Source of the DNA: a virus
Length of the DNA: 64,000 nucleotides
Reading direction: 5' to 3' (one strand)
Virus record (IMG/VR): IMGVR_UViG_3300045241_000217
Location: 1-64,000 of that record
A model generated the notes under the pieces. It was not told the origin of the DNA. It saw only the letters and a program-made list of their open reading frames with translations, and did no database searches. The translations under genes were made by a program, and so were the position numbers. Of this stretch, positions 46,923-53,974 are shown piece after piece. Position 1 is the stretch's first letter, and each line of letters starts with the position of its first letter.

Positions 46923-46980
46923 CGCGCTCAGAGCGTAGCGCGTTCCTTGCCCGCGCCGTTGCTCGTGCTACCTGTCGATC

Positions 46981-47093
46981 GTCTGTCCCGCCCCAAGGGG
47001 TTCTACACGGTGCTCCTACACCCGATCGATCCGATGCGCGCATGCCTACGACCCCAAGGTCGCGGGACAGACCTTGCTCGCGTCGGATCGATC
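46981..47093 (+). promoter_or_regulatory. structured (pseudoknot-capable) leader upstream of the RAMP-like gene
   Basis: Perfect 11-bp pairs 46981-46991/47062-47072 and 47024-47034/47083-47093 in interleaved order. Confidence 0.5.
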
Positions 47094-47107
47094 AGTTGGA
47101 GGCGCCC

Positions 47108-47734
47108 ATGTTGCGCATCGAAGTCGAGATCGAAGGCCGTACCCCGCTGCTGATGAATCGCATGTCGCCCGAGGCCCTGGAGGGCCTGCGGACGAAAGCG
47201 AAGGCCCCGAAGTCCAAGACCCAAGCGTCGCAGACACCCCGCGAGCAAGCTGAGGCTCACGTCTACAAGCGCACGGACGGCGCGCCGTACTTGCCGGTAG
47301 AGAATCTGCTCTCGTGCCTGATCGCAGCGGGCGTGTTCATCCGACTCGACGGCAAGCGTCAGATGAGCACAGGCAAGAGCACGACAGTGCCTGGACTGTT
47401 CGAGATCGAGGAATCGTGGCTCCCGCTCGTCACGCCATCGGAGAACGGTGCGCGCCCACCGCTCACGTGGGATCCCGACATTCGCCAGGGCCGCAATCCG
47501 AACGGCGGGGAGGCGGTGTGCATCGTGCGGCCGCGCTTCGATCGTTGGGCAGCCTCGCTCACGATCTGCATCGACACCGAGCAGATCGACGAGGCGAAGA
47601 TTCGCGATCTCTTCGACATCGCCGGCAAGCGCATCGGGCTCGGTGACTTCCGCCCGTCGCGCAAGGGTATCTTCGGCAAGTTCAACGTGGCCCGCTGGGA
47701 ACGCCTCGACGCGATCTCTCAAGCCGCGGAGTAG
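47108..47734 (+). CDS. standalone RAMP / Cas7-like RNA-binding protein
   Basis: GGAGG RBS at 47098-47102; N-terminal strand IEVEIEGRTPLLMN, YLPVENLLSCL, RPRFDRW, C-terminal Gly-rich loop IGLGDFRPSRKGIFGKF. Confidence 0.75.
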   Translation: MLRIEVEIEGRTPLLMNRMSPEALEGLRTKAKAPKSKTQASQTPREQAEAHVYKRTDGAPYLPVENLLSCLIAAGVFIRLDGKRQMSTGKSTTVPGLFEIEESWLPLVTPSENGARPPLTWDPDIRQGRNPNGGEAVCIVRPRFDRWAASLTICIDTEQIDEAKIRDLFDIAGKRIGLGDFRPSRKGIFGKFNVARWERLDAISQAAE

Positions 47735-47744
47735 TTTACTCCCG

Positions 47745-47868
47745 GGCTGTGAATGGCTCGGCAGCGCAGCGTTCTGCTCTGTACCGCTTGCCTACGCTCG
47801 GCAGGGTTTCGTGTGGCCTGCGCCGCGGCGCTCCGCATGGTCTGGTGCGGCACTGCAACGCAACGCAA
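47745..47868 (+). repeat. pentamer array 1 (NGYNN, 25 units, one 1-nt slip)
   Basis: ggctg tgaat ggctc ggcag cgcag cgttc tgctc tgtac cgctt gccta cgctc ggcag ggttt cgtgt ggcc tgcgc cgcgg cgctc cgcat ggtct ggtgc ggcac tgcaa cgcaa cgcaa. Confidence 0.85.
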
Positions 47869-47891
47869 GGGCCCCGTGATGGGGATGGTTC

Positions 47892-47937
47892 GCTCCGAGC
47901 ATTGGGCTCGTTGCCGGTTTCGAGGACCGGACGGGGC
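47892..47937 (+). ncRNA. tRNA-like linker 1 (acceptor-like stem + T-arm)
   Basis: gctccg/cggggc stem; ccggt-TTCGAGG-accgg 5-bp stem with 7-nt loop. Confidence 0.6.
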
Positions 47938-47950
47938 ATCACGGAAGGAG

Positions 47951-48075
47951 TGTGGTGCGAGGTAGCGCGGTGTTCCGCAGCGCAGCGCCGGGTCGGGCGG
48001 GGTCGCGCACCGCTAGGTTCTGTAGCGCTCTGCGACGTGTCGCGGGGTAAGGCGACCCATCGCTCTGCTCTCCAA
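47951..48075 (+). repeat. pentamer array 2 (NGYNN, 24 units + tccaa)
   Basis: tgtgg tgcga ggtag cgcgg tgttc cgcag cgcag cgccg ggtcg ggcgg ggtcg cgcac cgcta ggttc tgtag cgctc tgcga cgtgt cgcgg ggtaa ggcga cccat cgctc tgctc tccaa; 23 of 24 units fit, no slips. Confidence 0.92.
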
Positions 48076-48094
48076 GGAGCCCTGGTGGCTGGTG

Positions 48095-48139
48095 GCTACG
48101 AGAGTCGGTCTCTCGGCGGGTTCGATGCCCGCTCGTAGC
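48095..48139 (+). ncRNA. tRNA-like linker 2 (7-bp acceptor-like stem + T-arm)
   Basis: gctacga/tcgtagc perfect 7 bp stacked on gcggg-TTCGATG-cccgc. Confidence 0.7.
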
Positions 48140-48223
48140 GTCTCGCGAGGTCGTGCTGGGCGAGGCGCGGCACTGGGCTGTGCGGTGACGTTCAGCGGTG
48201 CGCGGTACGGTGATGCAATCCAA
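48139..48223 (+). repeat. pentamer array 3 (NGYNN, 16 units + tccaa)
   Basis: cgtct cgcga ggtcg tgctg ggcga ggcgc ggcac tgggc tgtgc ggtga cgttc agcgg tgcgc ggtac ggtga tgcaa tccaa; 15 of 16 units fit. Confidence 0.88.
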
Positions 48224-48241
48224 GGGGCCCTGCGGCCAACA

Positions 48242-48778
48242 TCACCGATCGCCACGCGGGAGGGATCCGAGCAGAGCGCCGACGCGCTCTGCGCCAGGGC
48301 GAGGCGCTTCTTCCGGCTCGTCCTCGTCGGTCATCGCGAAACGAAGAGGCGGCTTGCTGGGATCGGTCTCGGAAAGCTCGAGGGCGTCCCACTCGGCGTC
48401 GCCCGTGAGGTGCGGTGCGTCGGCGAAGGCTCGCCCCTCCTCCGTGTTGTTCACGCGGAAGCGCCCACCCGACACCGGAGCCGGGAGCGTCTCTCCATCC
48501 ATCGTCACCTGCGCCGGTGCCTCGCGAACATCTCGACGAGGCGTCTGCTGCGGTCGGTTCTTGGACCGCACGCGCTCTAGGGCGTCGAGCCCGTAGACCT
48601 GCTCAAGCGCCTCCCTCATCGTCACCTGCGAGAGTCTCTCGTCGCTTGGAGGGAGGCGGAACCTTTCGGCCCACAGGAGCTTCACCACCTCCAGCGGGGG
48701 CATCGTCCGTTCCTCGAACGCCTTCGCCAGCATCTCCGGTGAGCGCGTCCCCGAAACGAAATCGAGCCTCGTGTTCAC
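48242..48778 (-). CDS. tail assembly chaperone, downstream (T-like) frame
   Basis: LWAERFRLPPSDERL motif; overlaps the chaperone ORF and precedes the tape measure; probably reached by frameshift. Confidence 0.6.
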   Translation of the reverse strand: MNTRLDFVSGTRSPEMLAKAFEERTMPPLEVVKLLWAERFRLPPSDERLSQVTMREALEQVYGLDALERVRSKNRPQQTPRRDVREAPAQVTMDGETLPAPVSGGRFRVNNTEEGRAFADAPHLTGDAEWDALELSETDPSKPPLRFAMTDEDEPEEAPRPGAERVGALLGSLPRGDR

Positions 48779-49157
48779 GGCACCTCCCGAACAACGAGAA
48801 GTAGGGCGTCATGTCGTACGAATGTTCTCCGTCCGGCGCATACCAGTCGGGCCTCGGGAACTCCTTGGAGAAGCGAATGGCCACGCTGAGGTACGTGAGC
48901 GCCTCGACCTTCCGCCCGCCCAACTGATCGAACGAGGCGCCGTCGGGGAGGATGTTGGCGCGGAGTTGTGTGATGCGCGTCTCTTCCGCGATGCTCGGGA
49001 CCTTGTAGTGGAAGCGGCCCACGTACTTGCGGCCGCGCTCTCCCACGACGTCGAGATCGATCATCTTGATCGGCGACACGTCCTCGTCCGCGTCCGTCTT
49101 TTTCTTCTCGCCCCGCGCTTGGAGCTCGCGCTCCGCATCTTCGATGGTGCTCGCCAT
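48603..49157 (-). CDS. tail assembly chaperone (G-like)
   Basis: Between tube and tape measure; Y.GRF.YKVPSI.EE..I...R ... PDWY pattern. Confidence 0.65.
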   Translation of the reverse strand: MASTIEDAERELQARGEKKKTDADEDVSPIKMIDLDVVGERGRKYVGRFHYKVPSIAEETRITQLRANILPDGASFDQLGGRKVEALTYLSVAIRFSKEFPRPDWYAPDGEHSYDMTPYFSLFGRCREHEARFRFGDALTGDAGEGVRGTDDAPAGGGEAPVGRKVPPPSKRRETLAGDDEGGA

Positions 49158-49266
49158 GCTCGTCTCCCTGTCAGCCCCGTGCCGACGTCAAGGCGTACCA
49201 CGTACTGGCGCCGAGAGCCGAGCGCGCTAAACCATCGACGCGCGCACGAGCGTGCAGGAGGAACGA

Positions 49267-49584
49267 GTGAACGATCTAGAGCGTGTCGCCCGCACGATCG
49301 CCGGGCTCTACAACAACGCGCGGGGCCCTGGCGTCTTCGGTCTCTTCGACACGAAGAAGATGTCGAGCGGTGAGGCGGTGTCGCTCGCGCGCAAGGCGAT
49401 GGCCTCGTCGAACGGGATCTACTTCGACTATCACAACGCGCGCGTGATGAAGGTTCGGGTCCGCGCCGACGGATCCGGGGAGGACGGCGATCTCTACGAT
49501 CGCGACAACGGCCACGGGGCCTACCGTCGCGCGATCGAGCAAGGCCTCGCCGATGCGGCGTACGACTTCACGGGCATCACGTGA
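49267..49584 (+). CDS. hypothetical protein (plus-strand insert)
   Basis: GTG after hairpin+AGGAGG; YFDY..ARVMKV...LYDRDNG.GA. Confidence 0.65.
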   Translation: MNDLERVARTIAGLYNNARGPGVFGLFDTKKMSSGEAVSLARKAMASSNGIYFDYHNARVMKVRVRADGSGEDGDLYDRDNGHGAYRRAIEQGLADAAYDFTGIT

Positions 49585-50016
49585 GCACCTGGAACGAGCC
49601 GCTCGACGAGCCACCGGAGCCCGACGCGTGGTCGGCGCACTCCGAATCGCAGTCGAACGCGTACGCCGCGACGCACCGCCGCACGCAGTGGGGGTGGCAC
49701 GGCGGAGTGACGCAAGGATGGGGGCGGCGCGCGGCGCGAGCGGGAGGCTTCAAGCGCAAGGCGCGTCGCCGCTTGGTGTCGCGGTGAGCCTCGTGCATTA
49801 CGCCCCTGCCGTCTCGCACGGCCAACTCCGCGATGGTCGCCACGTCGTTGTGGCGGTCACCCGATGCCGTCTCGTGGACGCTGCCCACGAGCACTTCAAC
49901 CGCGAGGAGCCCTCGCGCGCGACGTGCGCCGAGTGTCGGCACCACGACGGCTCGCTCGATCCGAACCTGTGGCGCGTGCACGTGACGATCGAGGGGATGC
50001 CCATGGGAGGTGGACG

Positions 50017-50331
50017 ATGAAGGACGACGAGAAGAGCGGGCAGACCGCGATGGACTTCGACGGCGGAACGATCGAGCCCGCGCTCGACGCACCACGCTTG
50101 GGCGCGCTGCTCACTGCGGTGCGGGACCTCATGCACGACGGGCGGTGGCGCACGTTCGCCGAGATCCAGTCCTCGATCGGGATGGGCAGCGAGGGTGGGA
50201 TCAGCGCGCGGCTGCGCGACCTGCGCAAGGAGCGATTCGGGAGCCACACGGTCGAGCGCCGACGTCGGGGCGTGCCGAGCGACGGTCTCTTCGAGTACCG
50301 GCTCAAGCCGCTTCCCGAGACAGCGGGGTGA
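50017..50331 (+). CDS. winged-helix DNA-binding protein
   Basis: LM.DGRWRT.AEI.......E.GISARLRDLRKERFG.H.VERRRR....FEYRL. Confidence 0.7.
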   Translation: MKDDEKSGQTAMDFDGGTIEPALDAPRLGALLTAVRDLMHDGRWRTFAEIQSSIGMGSEGGISARLRDLRKERFGSHTVERRRRGVPSDGLFEYRLKPLPETAG

Positions 50332-50657
50332 GCGGCGAGGCGCTCGCCATCGCTCGCCTCAAGGCGAGGTGCTCCTCGCTCAGCAAGGTCATCGCGGATC
50401 TCACCGCGAAGCTCTCGGTGGCCGAGCGAGCTCTCGCCGAGCGAGACGCACAGCCCGGACTGTCCGTGGACCGCACCGAGTGGGCTCGTCTCGTCGAGGT
50501 GGACCGCATGGCCGAGGAGTACGTCGCGCAGGCCGACAAGCGATGCGAGGTGCTCCGGCGCATCGTACGCACGCGGAACGAGGAGATCGCCTCGCTCAAG
50601 GAGCAGCTACGTGGGGCGGGTGTGGCCGTCGAGCAGGACGGCCCGCTCACCGACTGA
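50328..50657 (+). CDS. coiled-coil hypothetical protein
   Basis: GTG overlapping the upstream TGA; heptad pattern. Confidence 0.55.
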   Translation: MSGEALAIARLKARCSSLSKVIADLTAKLSVAERALAERDAQPGLSVDRTEWARLVEVDRMAEEYVAQADKRCEVLRRIVRTRNEEIASLKEQLRGAGVAVEQDGPLTD

Positions 50658-50660
50658 TCG

Positions 50661-51101
50661 CTAGCTGACTTCGCTCTCGTCCAGGATGGCGATGCAGTTG
50701 AACTCGAGGTCCGTGAGCACGATGCCGCGCGCACCGGTCTGGATCTGGTAGCTCACGCACTTCACCCGCTGGATGGTCGCGAGCAGAATCCCCGTCGTCG
50801 GGTCCTCCACCGTGCCCGTCATCTCACCGCGGGTGAGGATGTCGCGCAGACGCGGGAAGATGACGATGCCGTCCCGGTTCTTCACGCTGTTGCCGATGAC
50901 GCGGCACATCTGCGCGCTGAAGCTCGCGTCGTAGTCGATCGGCACGTTCTCGGCTGCCTCGAACTGGTCGAGGGGCTTCACGGGCGCGTGCTCGATGCGC
51001 TCGCCGTAGTTGCAGTTCATGGCCAGCGCGACCTTCACGCCGTCGAGGGAGAGCCGCGTGCGGGCGCCGGACTGGATCAGATTGCGGAAGGGGTTGGCCA
51101 T
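50661..51101 (-). CDS. tail tube protein
   Basis: 146 aa downstream of the sheath; SGAR..L..DG.KV...NYG beta-rich pattern. Confidence 0.8.
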   Translation of the reverse strand: MANPFRNLIQSGARTRLSLDGVKVALAMNCNYGERIEHAPVKPLDQFEAAENVPIDYDASFSAQMCRVIGNSVKNRDGIVIFPRLRDILTRGEMTGTVEDPTTGILLATIQRVKCVSYQIQTGARGIVLTDLEFNCIAILDESEVS

Positions 51102-51116: not shown

Positions 51117-51710
51117 TCAGGCCGCAGCCTTGTCCTGGGCCTTGCGAACACGGGCGTACAGCGTGAAGTAGTTGATCCCCGTCGCGACCGACGCGTCCTT
51201 GATGGATGCGTACGTGACTCCTTCGAGTGTCACGGGGACCTTCGGTTTCCCGGAGCGGCGTTTCTCTGGCGACAGTGCAACACGCGGCTCCTGCCGAAGC
51301 ACCCTGAGTCGGTGGTCGAGTGTGTTGTGATGGATGCCCGTCTCGGCAGACCAGTCCGCGATCGTCATTCGGCGACCGTCGTGCTCAACCCACACATTCC
51401 GCCGCGTGTTTCGTTTGTTCTGGGCCCTGGTGGCCCACCGAACGTTGCCAGGCTCGTAGCCCTTGCTGTTGTCGATGCGGTCGATCTCGTGAAGTGGACT
51501 TGGGCGCTTGCCCACCTCTGCGACGAAGGACGCTGGATCGACGAGCCATCCTTGGTGCACATCGATCCCGCGTCCGCCGTAATCCTTGAAGGAAGGATGG
51601 CTTGCCTGCCGGCAGCGATTGGTGATGTAGCGGAGCACGCGATACTCCACTGTCCGTGAGAGGCCGTGCCTCCGGATCGGTCGGCCAAGCGTGTCGAGTC
51701 GCTCGCTCAC
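51117..51710 (-). CDS. HNH-type homing endonuclease
   Basis: HGLS.T.EY......RC......F.DYGGRGI.V...W...F...G.RP....IDRIDN..GYEPGNVRWAT...N.RN. Confidence 0.88.
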   Translation of the reverse strand: MSERLDTLGRPIRRHGLSRTVEYRVLRYITNRCRQASHPSFKDYGGRGIDVHQGWLVDPASFVAEVGKRPSPLHEIDRIDNSKGYEPGNVRWATRAQNKRNTRRNVWVEHDGRRMTIADWSAETGIHHNTLDHRLRVLRQEPRVALSPEKRRSGKPKVPVTLEGVTYASIKDASVATGINYFTLYARVRKAQDKAAA

Positions 51711-53974
51711 GCCGCTGCCCGAGCAATGAACAAGTGGGCCGTCACCAAGATGAACGAAATAGGCGTCACGGGTGCCCACTCGACGCTGACCGGGAACGCG
51801 TCGCCGATCTGCTCGATGACCAGCGTCTCGGGGCGGTACGAGAACAGGATGCCGTCGAGCACGAGCTCCTCGAGCACACCGAGCGCGAGGCTCTTGAGCA
51901 CGCCGACGCTGCCACGGATGCCCGCAGTGCCGACCTTGCGCTCCATGCGGCGCCGGAACTCGAAGATCGCCGTGTCGTCGGCGGCGTTCGCGCTCACCTC
52001 GCCGAACACCACGTTGTCGTCCTGCGTGTAGGTGGTGATCGAGCGGATCCAGCGGATGCCGATGCCGTCCACCTTCTCGGCGATCATGAGACCCGCACGG
52101 ATGAGCGAGTCCTGGTCGTTCTCGACGTCCCACGTACTGTCGTTGCGGATGTCGAGCACGTTGATGAGCTTGTGCGTCAGCGGCTCGCCCACCGGAGCGC
52201 CGGCCTGCTGACCCGCCGCGATCGCGTCGAACATGTAGGGCGGGTACCAGGTGGCCTCGCCCGTGAGGGGGTCGAAGCGCTGGCACTCCTGGGCCACGCC
52301 CGAGAGGTGGCGCGTGTTGAGCGCCTGGAGCTGCGTGCGAATGTTCGCCTGCGTCTCACCCGTGCCATCCACCTTGCCGAACGCGACGTAGCCGTTGGCC
52401 TCGCTGCGGCCCTGGCCGGCGCGCCATACGAGGTGCGTGCGGAGGAGCGCCTCGATGGCGGGGTCGCGCGAGAGCACCACGATCTGCGTGACGCGGCGCT
52501 TCTTGAGCAGGTCGAGCGCGGCCTGCCACTGGTTGATCGTGACCACGCCCTCGATGCCGCCCGAGAGGTACACGTCGCTCGCGGTGTTGGCCGGCACGAG
52601 CGAGGCGCCGGCGTGTCGCGCCGCGCGCACCATCGCCGAGCCGTTGTTGAGAGCCTCGATGAAGCGCTCGAGATCGTCGGAGAACGTGGCGGTCGTGAGG
52701 AGCGAGACGGCCGTCGAGTAGTCGAGGGTCGAGACGAGTTCGGTACCGGCATCCACCGCGAGCGCCGTGGCGGTGAAGCCCGCGAGCGCGTTGAGGCGAT
52801 CGACGAGCCGCTGCACGGTCTTGAACGTGGCGGTGGCTGCGCTCACCGCGCGAGCCGCGACGGTGATGGTGCGCGCACCGGCGATGTCGCCCAGGCACAG
52901 CACGCTCAGCGTGCGGAAGTTGTCCGCGCTCACGACGGGCGTGGTGCCGGCCGTCATGTCGAAGCGGTCGCCGATGATCGCGCCGGTCGTGCTGAGTCCG
53001 AACACCGCGACGTCGTTGGCGGCGTTCACGTCGATCGACACGGCGATGGTCGTGTCGGCCACCGGCGAGTTCGTGAGGAGCACCACGCCGCGCGTGAGAA
53101 CCGCGGGGGCGAGCGAGAAGAGCGTCGTGGGGATCACGCTGTCGGTGACCAGCACGGTGCCCACGGCCGCCGCGCTCATCACGGTGCCGAGCACCTTGCT
53201 GAAGGACTGCGTTCCCTGCACGGGCGTGACGCCGTTCAGCACCTTGGTCTCGCTCACGGGGGTCGTGCCCGAGAGCCCGTAGACCGTGACGCTCTGCGTG
53301 GTGTCGCCCGCGTTGCTCGAGACGTAGCGGAGCGCGCCGGGCGCCGGGATGTTGGCGGTGCGCTGAGCCACCAGGCCGGTGGCGGTCTTCGTCGCGTCCA
53401 CGATGAAGGCCGTGCTCGTCACGCGTGCGAGAGCCGTCGTGTAGCCGCCGGTGCTCGGGGTGTAGAGCGCGCTGAACGCGGGGAGCCCGCCCACATCGTC
53501 GAACGTCTCGACGACGTCCTCGAAGGTGATGGTGATGAGCTTGCCGCGGTCGGTGCCGGCAGCGACCGACAGGTTGATCTGCGAGGTGAAGAGCCCGTAG
53601 TCCACGCTCGTGAGATCCACCGAGGGTGCCGCGAGCGCGTCGGCGAGCGTCGCGATGCTCTGCGTGGCCGGGTTCACCTTCACCGGCACGATCATCTGCG
53701 CGCCACCCGGCACGGCCTCGTCGAGAGACGGGTCGAACGCGAAGAGCGAAGCCGTGCGCAGGTCGCCCGAGCGGTACTGCTTCTGCGCCTTCTGCGGGTT
53801 CGAGAGATCGTAGGTCTTGTCCACCGTGAGGGGGACGCCGCCCTCGGCGGTGCCGACGAGCGCCACGATGCCGGTGCTGGAGATGCTCGTGCTCTGGAGC
53901 TGCGAGGCGTCGATGACCGAGTACGCACCGGGGACGACGATGTTGCGGCCGCCGAAGTACACGCTGGAGGGCAT
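51707..53974 (-). CDS. contractile tail sheath protein
   Basis: YFGGR.IVVPGAYS.ID, VALVGTAEGG.P, VKVNPATQS, LSGGIEG, GEPLTHK, RSITTY, PISFILVT. Confidence 0.92.
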   Translation of the reverse strand: MPSSVYFGGRNIVVPGAYSVIDASQLQSTSISSTGIVALVGTAEGGVPLTVDKTYDLSNPQKAQKQYRSGDLRTASLFAFDPSLDEAVPGGAQMIVPVKVNPATQSIATLADALAAPSVDLTSVDYGLFTSQINLSVAAGTDRGKLITITFEDVVETFDDVGGLPAFSALYTPSTGGYTTALARVTSTAFIVDATKTATGLVAQRTANIPAPGALRYVSSNAGDTTQSVTVYGLSGTTPVSETKVLNGVTPVQGTQSFSKVLGTVMSAAAVGTVLVTDSVIPTTLFSLAPAVLTRGVVLLTNSPVADTTIAVSIDVNAANDVAVFGLSTTGAIIGDRFDMTAGTTPVVSADNFRTLSVLCLGDIAGARTITVAARAVSAATATFKTVQRLVDRLNALAGFTATALAVDAGTELVSTLDYSTAVSLLTTATFSDDLERFIEALNNGSAMVRAARHAGASLVPANTASDVYLSGGIEGVVTINQWQAALDLLKKRRVTQIVVLSRDPAIEALLRTHLVWRAGQGRSEANGYVAFGKVDGTGETQANIRTQLQALNTRHLSGVAQECQRFDPLTGEATWYPPYMFDAIAAGQQAGAPVGEPLTHKLINVLDIRNDSTWDVENDQDSLIRAGLMIAEKVDGIGIRWIRSITTYTQDDNVVFGEVSANAADDTAIFEFRRRMERKVGTAGIRGSVGVLKSLALGVLEELVLDGILFSYRPETLVIEQIGDAFPVSVEWAPVTPISFILVTAHLFIARAAA

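What the first reader, a model, noticed from the sequence alone, without database searches (positions are those of the whole stretch)
47108..48230. Standalone RAMP/Cas7-like gene plus three 5-nt-periodic non-coding arrays: candidate RNA-guided phage system
Seen: a 208-aa plus-strand ORF with RAMP-like features (IEVEIEGRTPLL, YLP..NL, C-terminal IGLGDFRPSRKGIFGKF). Ten nt after its stop, three arrays begin in which G-Y recurs every 5 nt while the other positions vary (25, 25 and 17 units). No cas1/cas2, nuclease or CRISPR direct repeats occur in the window. The cassette lies antisense between the tail chaperone and tape-measure genes. Established: Cas7-type RAMPs polymerise along guide RNA with a fixed nucleotide step. 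Inference: each pentamer is one subunit footprint, with GY as the protein-binding constant and the variable bases encoding a discontinuous target, giving three guides that could silence rival phage or host genes. From memory this resembles the recently reported VIPR systems (GGY/NN repeats), which I could not verify here. In this locus the first base is relaxed (NGY), so it may be a divergent subtype.
Basis: partly seen in the sequence, partly recalled or inferred. Interest (0 to 1): 0.97.

Follow-up and report, generated by a model that had tools for sequence, protein, structure and literature searches.

The report
Phage VIPR locus: Vipr plus guide arrays
A 109-kb soil phage carries a real copy of the VIPR system first described in 2026: a small Cas7-like protein followed by three guide-RNA genes built of five-base repeats. 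It is a tidy new member of a published family, not a new kind of system.

Summary
A 208-aa ORF (47108-47734, +) is followed 10 nt later by three co-oriented tracts of 25, 24 and 17 five-base units. Their consensus is B-G-Y-N-N (G 64/66, Y 64/66). Every place in the 64-kb window where G-Y recurs at period 5 in at least 9 of 10 units lies here.

All 56 related loci fetched carry the same kind of arrays next to the gene. Each tract ends in a conserved CAAGG-plus-hairpin tail that distant relatives share. There is no Cas1 and no CRISPR-like repeat.

So this is a stand-alone VIPR locus with no vap partner, inserted antisense in the tail-gene module of a complete 109-kb myophage. The relaxed first base matches the "YNNNG" variant already noted in the VIPR preprint.

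I found no natural target and could not test expression. The tRNA-like hairpins between the tracts remain suggestive only. This scan already holds hundreds of VIPR notes on other DNA.

The parts
46965..47107 (+). Structured leader upstream of vipr. It has nested inverted repeats (31-nt arms 47012-47042 / 47075-47105; perfect 11-nt arms 46981-46991 / 47062-47072). The 3' arm covers the GGAGG ribosome-binding site. It holds two CCCCAAGG motifs that resemble the vrRNA tail.
   Evidence: RNA fold -63.2 kcal/mol, z -3.83, 0 of 200 shuffles fold as well. Repeats I1 and I4. Its role is unknown; a regulatory element or a decayed upstream vrRNA are guesses.
47108..47734 (+). vipr gene: a 208-aa stand-alone RAMP (Cas7-like) protein.
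   Evidence: Homology: hhalign to SUSP1 Vipr prob 96.8%, E 3.1e-10, residues 1-197 against 1-190. PDB profile search gave 36pp_D 'SUSP1 Vipr protein' at E 1.1e-7. phrog_4652 at E 3.6e-22.

47745..47868 (+). vrRNA repeat tract 1: 25 B-G-Y-N-N units, as 15 + 10 with a 1-nt register overlap at 47819. This may be a staggered junction between two vrRNAs.
   Evidence: The preprint describes staggered arrays with 1-nt overlaps in fig. S18.
47866..47950 (+). Tail 1 (CAAGG + CCCC/GGGG hairpin) and spacer 1. The spacer can fold as a cloverleaf-like element (47871-47937) with a T-arm-like hairpin at 47914-47930 (CCGGU UUCGAGG ACCGG).
   Evidence: z -1.87. The tRNA likeness is weak: ARAGORN calls it only at a threshold that gives 258 calls per genome, and the Rfam tRNA model gives no hit.
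47951..48070 (+). vrRNA repeat tract 2: 24 units. The first 21 are perfect G-Y; unit 22 (CCCAT) is degenerate.
48071..48139 (+). Tail 2 (UCCAAGGAGCC CUGGU GGCU) and spacer 2. It has a 7-bp closing stem (GCUACGA / UCGUAGC), one hairpin, and a near-canonical T-arm at 48116-48132 (GCGGG UUCGAUG CCCGC).
   Evidence: z -2.96. Rfam tRNA-Sec scores 16.3 bits against a gathering score of 47.
48134..48218 (+). vrRNA repeat tract 3: 17 units. The first unit overlaps the closing stem of spacer 2; unit 9 (TGGGC) is degenerate.
48219..48292 (+). Tail 3 (UCCAAGGGGCC CUGC GGCC), then a 9-bp GC hairpin (48271-48292) that may end the transcript. This stretch overlaps the 3' end of the convergent minus-strand ORF.
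   Evidence: A terminator role is inferred, and there is no U-run.

Best explanation
This is a VIPR (Viral Interference Programmable Repeat) locus made of a vipr gene and at least three vrRNA genes.

Proposed mechanism, by homology with the SUSP1 system:
1. The locus is transcribed rightwards from the region before 47108.
2. The non-coding part is cut into vrRNAs. Each consists of a run of B-G-Y-N-N pentamers capped by a conserved 3' tail (CAAGG plus a short GCC/GGC hairpin).
3. One Vipr protomer binds each pentamer. The thumb arginine (R141) and the G-loop residues D180, F181 and R182 hold the G and the pyrimidine, and the two N bases are left exposed.
4. The filament pairs its NN dinucleotides with double-stranded DNA, skipping every third target base (NNx).
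5. It sits on the target as a transcriptional roadblock against a rival mobile element or a host gene.

What is shown here: protein homology and fold, conserved contact residues, the repeat code, the tails, the strict gene-array linkage in relatives, the viral context, and the absence of self-targets. What is inferred: transcription, processing, RNP assembly, DNA binding, the skip rule for this subfamily, and the identity of the targets.
For: Protein
- The only PDB sequence hit is SUSP1 Vipr (phmmer E 0.0028; profile E 1.1e-7, collinear).
- hhalign to the SUSP1 gene product gives 96.8%, E 3.1e-10, full length.
- SUSP1 RNA-contact residues R138, D177, W178 and R179 (paper .720927) align to R141, D180, F181 and R182. 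These are invariant or nearly so in the family.

RNA genes
- 66 units with G 64/66 and Y 64/66 and variable NN.
- They are unique in the 109-kb genome and strand-specific.
- All three tracts end in CAAGG plus a hairpin. AAGG follows 96 of 214 relatives' arrays against 9.7% background, and the same UCCAAGG tail occurs in L012, L013 and L018.

Linkage
- 54 of 54 IMG/VR loci and 2 of 2 MAG loci with a homologue have co-oriented arrays next to the gene. Coverage is 33% near the gene against 0.33% further than 1.5 kb away.
- The same scanner recovers SUSP1's published 1 upstream + 3 downstream vrRNAs.

Context
- The record is a complete 109,170-bp virus with terminal repeats and a tail sheath gene.
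- No Cas1 and no CRISPR-like repeats.
- No self-target under any skip rule, as the preprint reports for its own systems.
Against: - No experimental data exist for this subfamily. SUSP1 Vipr shares only about 23% identity with it.
- H17, which reads the first G in SUSP1, is N17 here. Position 1 shows no preference for G (24 of 66, the background level).
- Tracts of 24-25 units are longer than the 9-16 described for type II.
- There is no vap gene.
- Eight seed searches under the 1-nt skip rule produced no target that extends beyond the seed.
- No promoter-like site was found, although the scan only covers sigma-70 consensus.
Confidence: 0.9

Rival explanations
1. The Vipr-vrRNA complex is the same, but in this vap-less, N17 subfamily it acts on RNA, or uses a different read-out: for example three bases per unit, with position 1 also pairing. 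It would then not follow the published DNA roadblock with a 1-nt skip.
For: - The closest solved folds are RNA-targeting Csm3 subunits.
- Position 1 is not held as G.
- The SUSP1 residue that reads G1 is replaced.
- No NNx target was found.
Against: - Position 1 almost never is A (1 of 66), which fits a protein constraint better than free coding.
- If position 1 is read as the third target base, tract 2 acquires a TAG stop in both orientations (my reading of the units).
- SUSP1 arrays also tolerate non-G at position 1.
- All seven published types are described as sharing the tandem-repeat code.
Confidence: 0.06
2. The locus is a decayed or orphaned remnant: the gene and arrays are present but no longer expressed or matched to any target.
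For: - No target was found.
- The tracts hold a few degenerate units (TGAAT, GCCTA, CCCAT, TGGGC).
- The locus sits antisense inside the tail operon.
- No RNA run is available.
Against: - The ORF is intact with a good ribosome-binding site.
- All family-invariant residues are kept.
- 64 of 66 units keep G-Y, and all three tails are intact.
- The preprint notes that internal degeneracy is frequent in working vrRNAs.
Confidence: 0.03
3. The period-5 tracts are a compositional or coding artefact, such as a minisatellite or an overlapping ORF, and the protein is an unrelated RRM protein.
For: Mechanical ORFs of 70-129 aa overlap the tracts in this GC-rich DNA.
Against: - A 5-nt period is incompatible with codons.
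- The signal is unique in the genome and strand-specific.
- It recurs next to every homologue, at GC contents from 34% to 71%.
- The protein matches Vipr by sequence.
Confidence: 0.01

Closest known systems
Type II VIPR of Escherichia phage SUSP1 (Vipr + vap1 + four vrRNAs; bioRxiv 10.64898/2026.04.26.720920, .720927 and 10.64898/2026.10.15.759431; PDB 36pp)
   Same: - Homologous small RAMP protein of similar size (208 aa against 195 aa) with conserved thumb Arg and G-loop D-aromatic-R.
- Co-oriented pentamer tracts with constant G-Y and variable NN, each capped by a conserved 3' tail.
- Phage-borne, with no CRISPR array and no Cas1.
- No self-targets.
   Different: - About 23% identity.
- No vap gene.
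- No array upstream of the gene.
- Position 1 is G in 36% of units here against about 75% in SUSP1.
- H17 is N17.
- Tracts have 17-25 units against 9-16.
- The tail is CAAGG plus a hairpin, not the SUSP1 pseudoknot tail.
- The spacers carry T-arm-like hairpins.
VIPR variants with YNNNG / NNNGG / NNNNG repeats, staggered arrays and ribozyme-interspersed arrays (same preprint, methods and figs S17-S19)
   Same: - The B-G-Y-N-N unit equals the listed YNNNG variant.
- The 1-nt register overlap inside tract 1 resembles the staggered arrays.
- Stand-alone vipr genes are mentioned among the founding hits.
   Different: I could not place this protein in one of the seven types, because the preprint's tables and trees are not held. 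No hammerhead ribozyme was detected in the spacers.
CRISPR-Cas class 1 backbone subunits (Csm3/Cas7 of types III-A and VII)
   Different: - 11-15% identity.
- No PADLOC or Pfam Cas7 model matches.
- No other cas genes and no repeat-spacer array.
- The step is 5 nt rather than 6 nt, and the guide is non-contiguous.

Membership tests
VIPR system | Vipr protein: sequence homology to established Vipr proteins | tested here: met
   hhalign of the family profile against SUSP1 Vipr: 96.8%, E 3.1e-10, full length. hmmsearch against PDB: 36pp_D at E 1.1e-7, the only significant hit.
VIPR system | Residues that hold the constant bases of the repeat (SUSP1 H17, R138, D177, W178, R179) | tested here: met
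   R141, D180, F181 and R182 are aligned and conserved. H17 is replaced by N17, so four of five are kept. The one lost reads the first G, which is not conserved in these repeats.
VIPR system | vrRNA genes: tandem pentamers with a constant GGY or related motif and hypervariable NN, at least 4 units, beside vipr | tested here: met
   66 units, with G 64/66, Y 64/66 and mixed NN, co-oriented, starting 10 nt after the stop codon. Variability of NN between near-identical loci could not be tested, because no DNA of close relatives was available.
VIPR system | Conserved 3' tail capping each repeat tract | tested here: met
   CAAGG plus a GCC/GGC hairpin follows all three tracts. The AAGG motif is enriched after relatives' arrays (45% against 9.7%), and the same UCCAAGG occurs in L012, L013 and L018.
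VIPR system | Minimal locus without CRISPR array or adaptation genes | tested here: met
   No Cas1 in the genome. No CRISPR-like repeats in the window. Cas2 was not searched separately.
VIPR system | vap accessory gene (typical, not obligatory) | tested here: not met
   No co-oriented gene adjoins vipr. No neighbour gene is shared with relatives. The preprint states that some Vipr genes stand alone, so this does not exclude membership.
VIPR system | vrRNAs are expressed, processed and bound by Vipr | not testable with these tools
   The only run found to hold the stretch is one soil DNA run, and no RNA run was listed.
VIPR system | Targets matching the NN string under the 1-nt skip rule; none in the phage's own genome | tested here: inconclusive
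   No self-target. Eight exact-seed scans of IMG/VR and JGI metagenomes gave only seed-length matches. The preprint's mismatch-tolerant nhmmer search could not be run on these collections.
CRISPR-Cas (class 1) | Repeat-spacer array plus a multi-subunit cas gene set | tested here: not met

The most novel reading that the evidence does not exclude
The two inter-tract spacers are tRNA-like modules, each with an acceptor-type closing stem stacked on a T-arm with a UUCGANN loop. They would recruit host RNase P and RNase Z to cut the primary transcript into separate vrRNAs. The VIPR preprints describe plain, staggered, hammerhead-interspersed and single-vrRNA layouts, so this would be a further way of maturing VIPR guides.
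Probability: 0.25. Interest if true: 0.5.

Novelty: new member of a known kind. Interest (0 to 1): 0.3.

Why it matters
The locus adds a clean, compact example of a vap-less VIPR system from a high-GC soil myophage. It belongs to a Vipr subfamily with hundreds of metagenomic members, for which nothing has been tested.

It gives three ready-made test cases:
- Does a Vipr with N17 really ignore the first base of the pentamer?
- Do 24-25-unit guides work as one long footprint or as staggered shorter ones?
- Do the spacer hairpins direct processing?

It does not change the picture of what VIPR systems are.

Tried and rejected
**Target search**
- I wrote the NN strings of each tract as NNx and searched the phage's own genome under skips of 0-3. 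Nothing scored above unit-order shuffles except the arrays themselves.
- 259 guide runs from relatives do not hit this phage.
- Seven exact 8-unit seeds in IMG/VR and one 9-unit seed in JGI metagenomes gave 3-113 hits each. None extended beyond the seed.
- The tract-1b seed hits an AGSILATN motif in two homologous proteins of high-GC contigs (L124, L125). However, that tract offers only two further units to extend a match, and 10 hits is within the chance range.

**tRNA mimicry**
- ARAGORN at default settings finds nothing in the window or in arrays of relatives.
- At a relaxed threshold it calls both spacers, together with 256 other places in the genome.
- Rfam gives only tRNA-Sec at 16.3 bits for spacer 2.

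**H17/N17 as the cause of the relaxed first base**
- H occurs in only 3 sequences, all of them G-rich at position 1. N17 sequences span 0.06-1.0. In that script I entered SUSP1, one of the three, as 1.0, but its arrays give about 0.75. The point is not settled.

- Complex prediction with two Vipr copies returned no verdict.
- No RNA holder was listed.
- The genome search does not draw relatives for a virus record.
- The host was not identified. The only genome hits for the subfamily are a Planctomycetaceae MAG and a Terriglobales MAG.
- The supposed tape-measure protein gave no match.

Full report
**What is there**

The window is the first 64 kb of a complete 109,170-bp virus record with terminal repeats. 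The DNA is 68% G+C. One soil metagenome run holds this stretch and may be its source.

On the plus strand, 47108-47734 encodes a 208-aa protein. GGAGG lies 6 nt before its ATG, and homologues begin at the same residue.

Ten bases after the stop codon, a 480-nt stretch begins that cannot be read as codons. It is built of five-base units in which the second base is G and the third is a pyrimidine.

In register I count three tracts:
- Tract 1, 47745-47868: 25 units. It is made of 15 + 10 units whose registers overlap by one base at 47819.
- Tract 2, 47951-48070: 24 units.
- Tract 3, 48134-48218: 17 units.

Over the 66 units, position 2 is G in 64 and position 3 is C or T in 64. Positions 4 and 5 are mixed. 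Position 1 is C, G or T but almost never A (1 of 66).

**Is it more than chance?**

G-Y occurs at 19% of plus-strand positions. By the binomial, about 0.2 positions in 64 kb should show it in at least 9 of 10 successive five-base steps.

There are 31 such positions. All lie between 47756 and 48170 on the plus strand, and the minus strand has none. In the full genome, both strands, only this locus reaches 8 of 8.

As a positive control I ran the same scanner on Escherichia phage SUSP1. It returned exactly the one upstream and three downstream guide genes that the literature describes.

**The protein**

Pfam and PADLOC find nothing. PHROGs places it in phrog_4652, which has no known function.

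Against all PDB sequences the only hit is chain 36pp_D, 'SUSP1 Vipr protein' (E 0.0028). With a profile of 30 homologues (A1) this rises to E 1.1e-7 over collinear positions 91-193 against 88-190.

I located the SUSP1 gene in NC_028808.2. Profile-to-sequence alignment with it gives 96.8% probability, E 3.1e-10, over essentially the whole length.

The structural paper names the SUSP1 residues that hold the constant bases. They align as follows:

| SUSP1 residue | Role in SUSP1 | Residue here |
|---|---|---|
| H17 | reads the first G | N17 (not kept) |
| R138 | thumb, salt bridge to G2 | R141 |
| D177 | G-loop, hydrogen bond to G1 | D180 |
| W178 | stacks on G2 | F181 |
| R179 | cation-pi on Y3 | R182 |

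R141, D180, F181 and R182 are invariant or nearly so across the family.

**Linkage in relatives**

The protein has at least 564 homologues in metagenomes. I fetched 54 IMG/VR loci (32-61% identity, G+C 34-71%) and the only two hits in species-representative genomes: a Planctomycetaceae MAG and a Terriglobales MAG.

All 56 carry co-oriented G-Y period-5 tracts directly before and/or after the gene. Among the 54 IMG/VR loci, 33% of the 400 nt on either side of the gene is covered, against 0.33% further than 1.5 kb away.

Tracts of several tens of units are common in this subfamily.

The share of G at position 1 varies from 0.06 to 1.0 between loci. SUSP1's own arrays have G there in about 75% of units. 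So the 'relaxed first base' is a quantitative trait of the family, and the preprint already lists YNNNG repeats.

**Tails and spacers**

Each tract ends the same way:
- Tract 1: ...GCAA-GG-GCCCC-GUGAU-GGGG
- Tract 2: ...UCCAAGGA-GCC-CUGGU-GGC
- Tract 3: ...GCAAUCCAAGGG-GCC-CUGC-GGC

That is CAAGG followed by a short hairpin. AAGG follows 96 of 214 arrays in relatives against a 9.7% background. The identical UCCAAGG tail occurs at 36-43% protein identity, in L012, L013 and L018. This corresponds to the 'invariable 3' tail' of published vrRNAs.

The two spacers between tracts each contain a 5-bp hairpin with a UUCGANN loop, at 47914-47930 and 48116-48132. Each hairpin is stacked against a closing stem. 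Spacer 2 matches the tRNA T-arm consensus almost perfectly.

Only eight such hairpins occur in the 218 kb of both strands, so two of them inside about 150 nt is unlikely by chance.

Whole-molecule tRNA likeness is not supported:
- ARAGORN detects the spacers only at a threshold that also gives 256 other calls in this genome.
- Rfam gives 16 bits for spacer 2 only.
- No relative shows the feature.

I therefore keep RNase P/Z processing as the most novel open reading, not as a finding. Other first-stage notes on this same stretch raised the same idea. They are not independent evidence.

**Context**

The cassette lies on the opposite strand to the tail genes. Reading along the minus strand, the order is:
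- sheath, 51710-53974 (phrog_279; about 32% identity to sheaths of roughly 90-kb Pseudomonas and Bordetella myophages)
- a probable tube gene, 50664-51101 (weak hit)
- two overlapping ORFs in the chaperone position, 48242-49157
- the VIPR cassette, on the plus strand
- a glycine-rich 633-aa ORF in the tape-measure position
- a tail protein with a lysin-like match

The chaperone and tape-measure labels rest on position only.

There is no vap-like partner, and relatives share no neighbour gene with this locus. Their neighbours are ordinary phage replication and packaging genes.

The 185-nt divergent region before vipr folds much better than shuffles (z -3.8). It could mask the ribosome-binding site.

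**How it most likely works**

The published mechanism comes from experiments on SUSP1 and on a P. fulva prophage system. One Vipr protomer binds each pentamer. G and Y are flipped into protein pockets, and the NN bases are presented for pairing. dsDNA is recognised with every third target base skipped, an R-loop triplex forms, and transcription is blocked.

By that rule tract 2 would read a 72-bp footprint. Decoded as codon positions 1-2, the guides give plausible peptides in one or both orientations.

I could not find a target:
- The phage's own genome has none.
- Relatives' guides do not hit this phage.
- Eight exact-seed scans of IMG/VR and JGI metagenomes gave only seed-length matches.

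This search was far less sensitive than the mismatch-tolerant one in the preprint, so the blank says little.

**Verdict**

The object is a genuine member of a family published in April 2026, with follow-up work in October 2026. This scan already holds 575 notes on such systems, in at least 381 genomes.

What is particular here:
- There is no vap gene.
- The cassette is inserted antisense in the tail module.
- Position 1 is unselected for G, and N17 replaces H17.
- The tracts are long.
- The spacers carry T-arm-like hairpins.

None of these takes it outside the known kind.

Noticed in passing
window 46965-47107: The divergent region between vipr and the minus-strand 633-aa gene is strongly structured (z -3.83). 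It has nested inverted repeats, one arm of which covers the vipr ribosome-binding site, and two CCCCAAGG motifs like the vrRNA tail. In one register 8 of 14 units before the first motif keep G-Y, so this may be a decayed upstream vrRNA.
   Followed up: partly
window 47914-47930 and 48116-48132: T-arm-like hairpins (5-bp stem, UUCGANN loop) lie in both inter-tract spacers, each next to a closing stem. They are positionally significant, but tRNA detectors do not support them as tRNA-like.
   Followed up: partly
window 49252-50657: A second plus-strand insertion sits inside the minus-strand tail module, between the probable tube and chaperone genes. It holds ORFs of 110, 155 and 215 aa, with only weak hints: KfrA_N DNA-binding at E 0.013 and LmuB at E 0.003.
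   Followed up: no
window 48242-49157: Two overlapping minus-strand ORFs (184 and 178 aa, in different frames) sit in the tail-chaperone position, as expected for a frameshifted G/GT pair. A 25-nt direct repeat (CATCGTCACCTGCG...) occurs at 48500 and 48617.
   Followed up: no
L008:4600-5200: In a relative (48% identity) part of the guide array is duplicated. Each tract is followed by an identical GNRA-tetraloop hairpin tail (GCGAGCC GAAA GGCUCGC). Tail structures therefore differ between clades of this subfamily.
   Followed up: no
L002-L055 (54 IMG/VR loci): The share of G at pentamer position 1 ranges from 0.06 to 1.0 between loci of one protein subfamily. Histidine at the SUSP1 H17 position occurs only in G-rich loci (3 sequences), but asparagine occurs with both.
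   Followed up: partly
L124:11183-11205 and L125:3858-3880: The first eight units of tract 1b spell, by the NNx rule, an AGSILATN motif in homologous proteins of two high-GC viral contigs, with different wobble bases. The hit count is at chance level, so this is not a claimed target.
   Followed up: partly
G000:C1:64614-64668 (outside the window): A 9-unit run with G-Y in 8 units lies on the plus strand, upstream of a minus-strand gene start. By the binomial estimate it is at chance level for this genome.
   Followed up: partly
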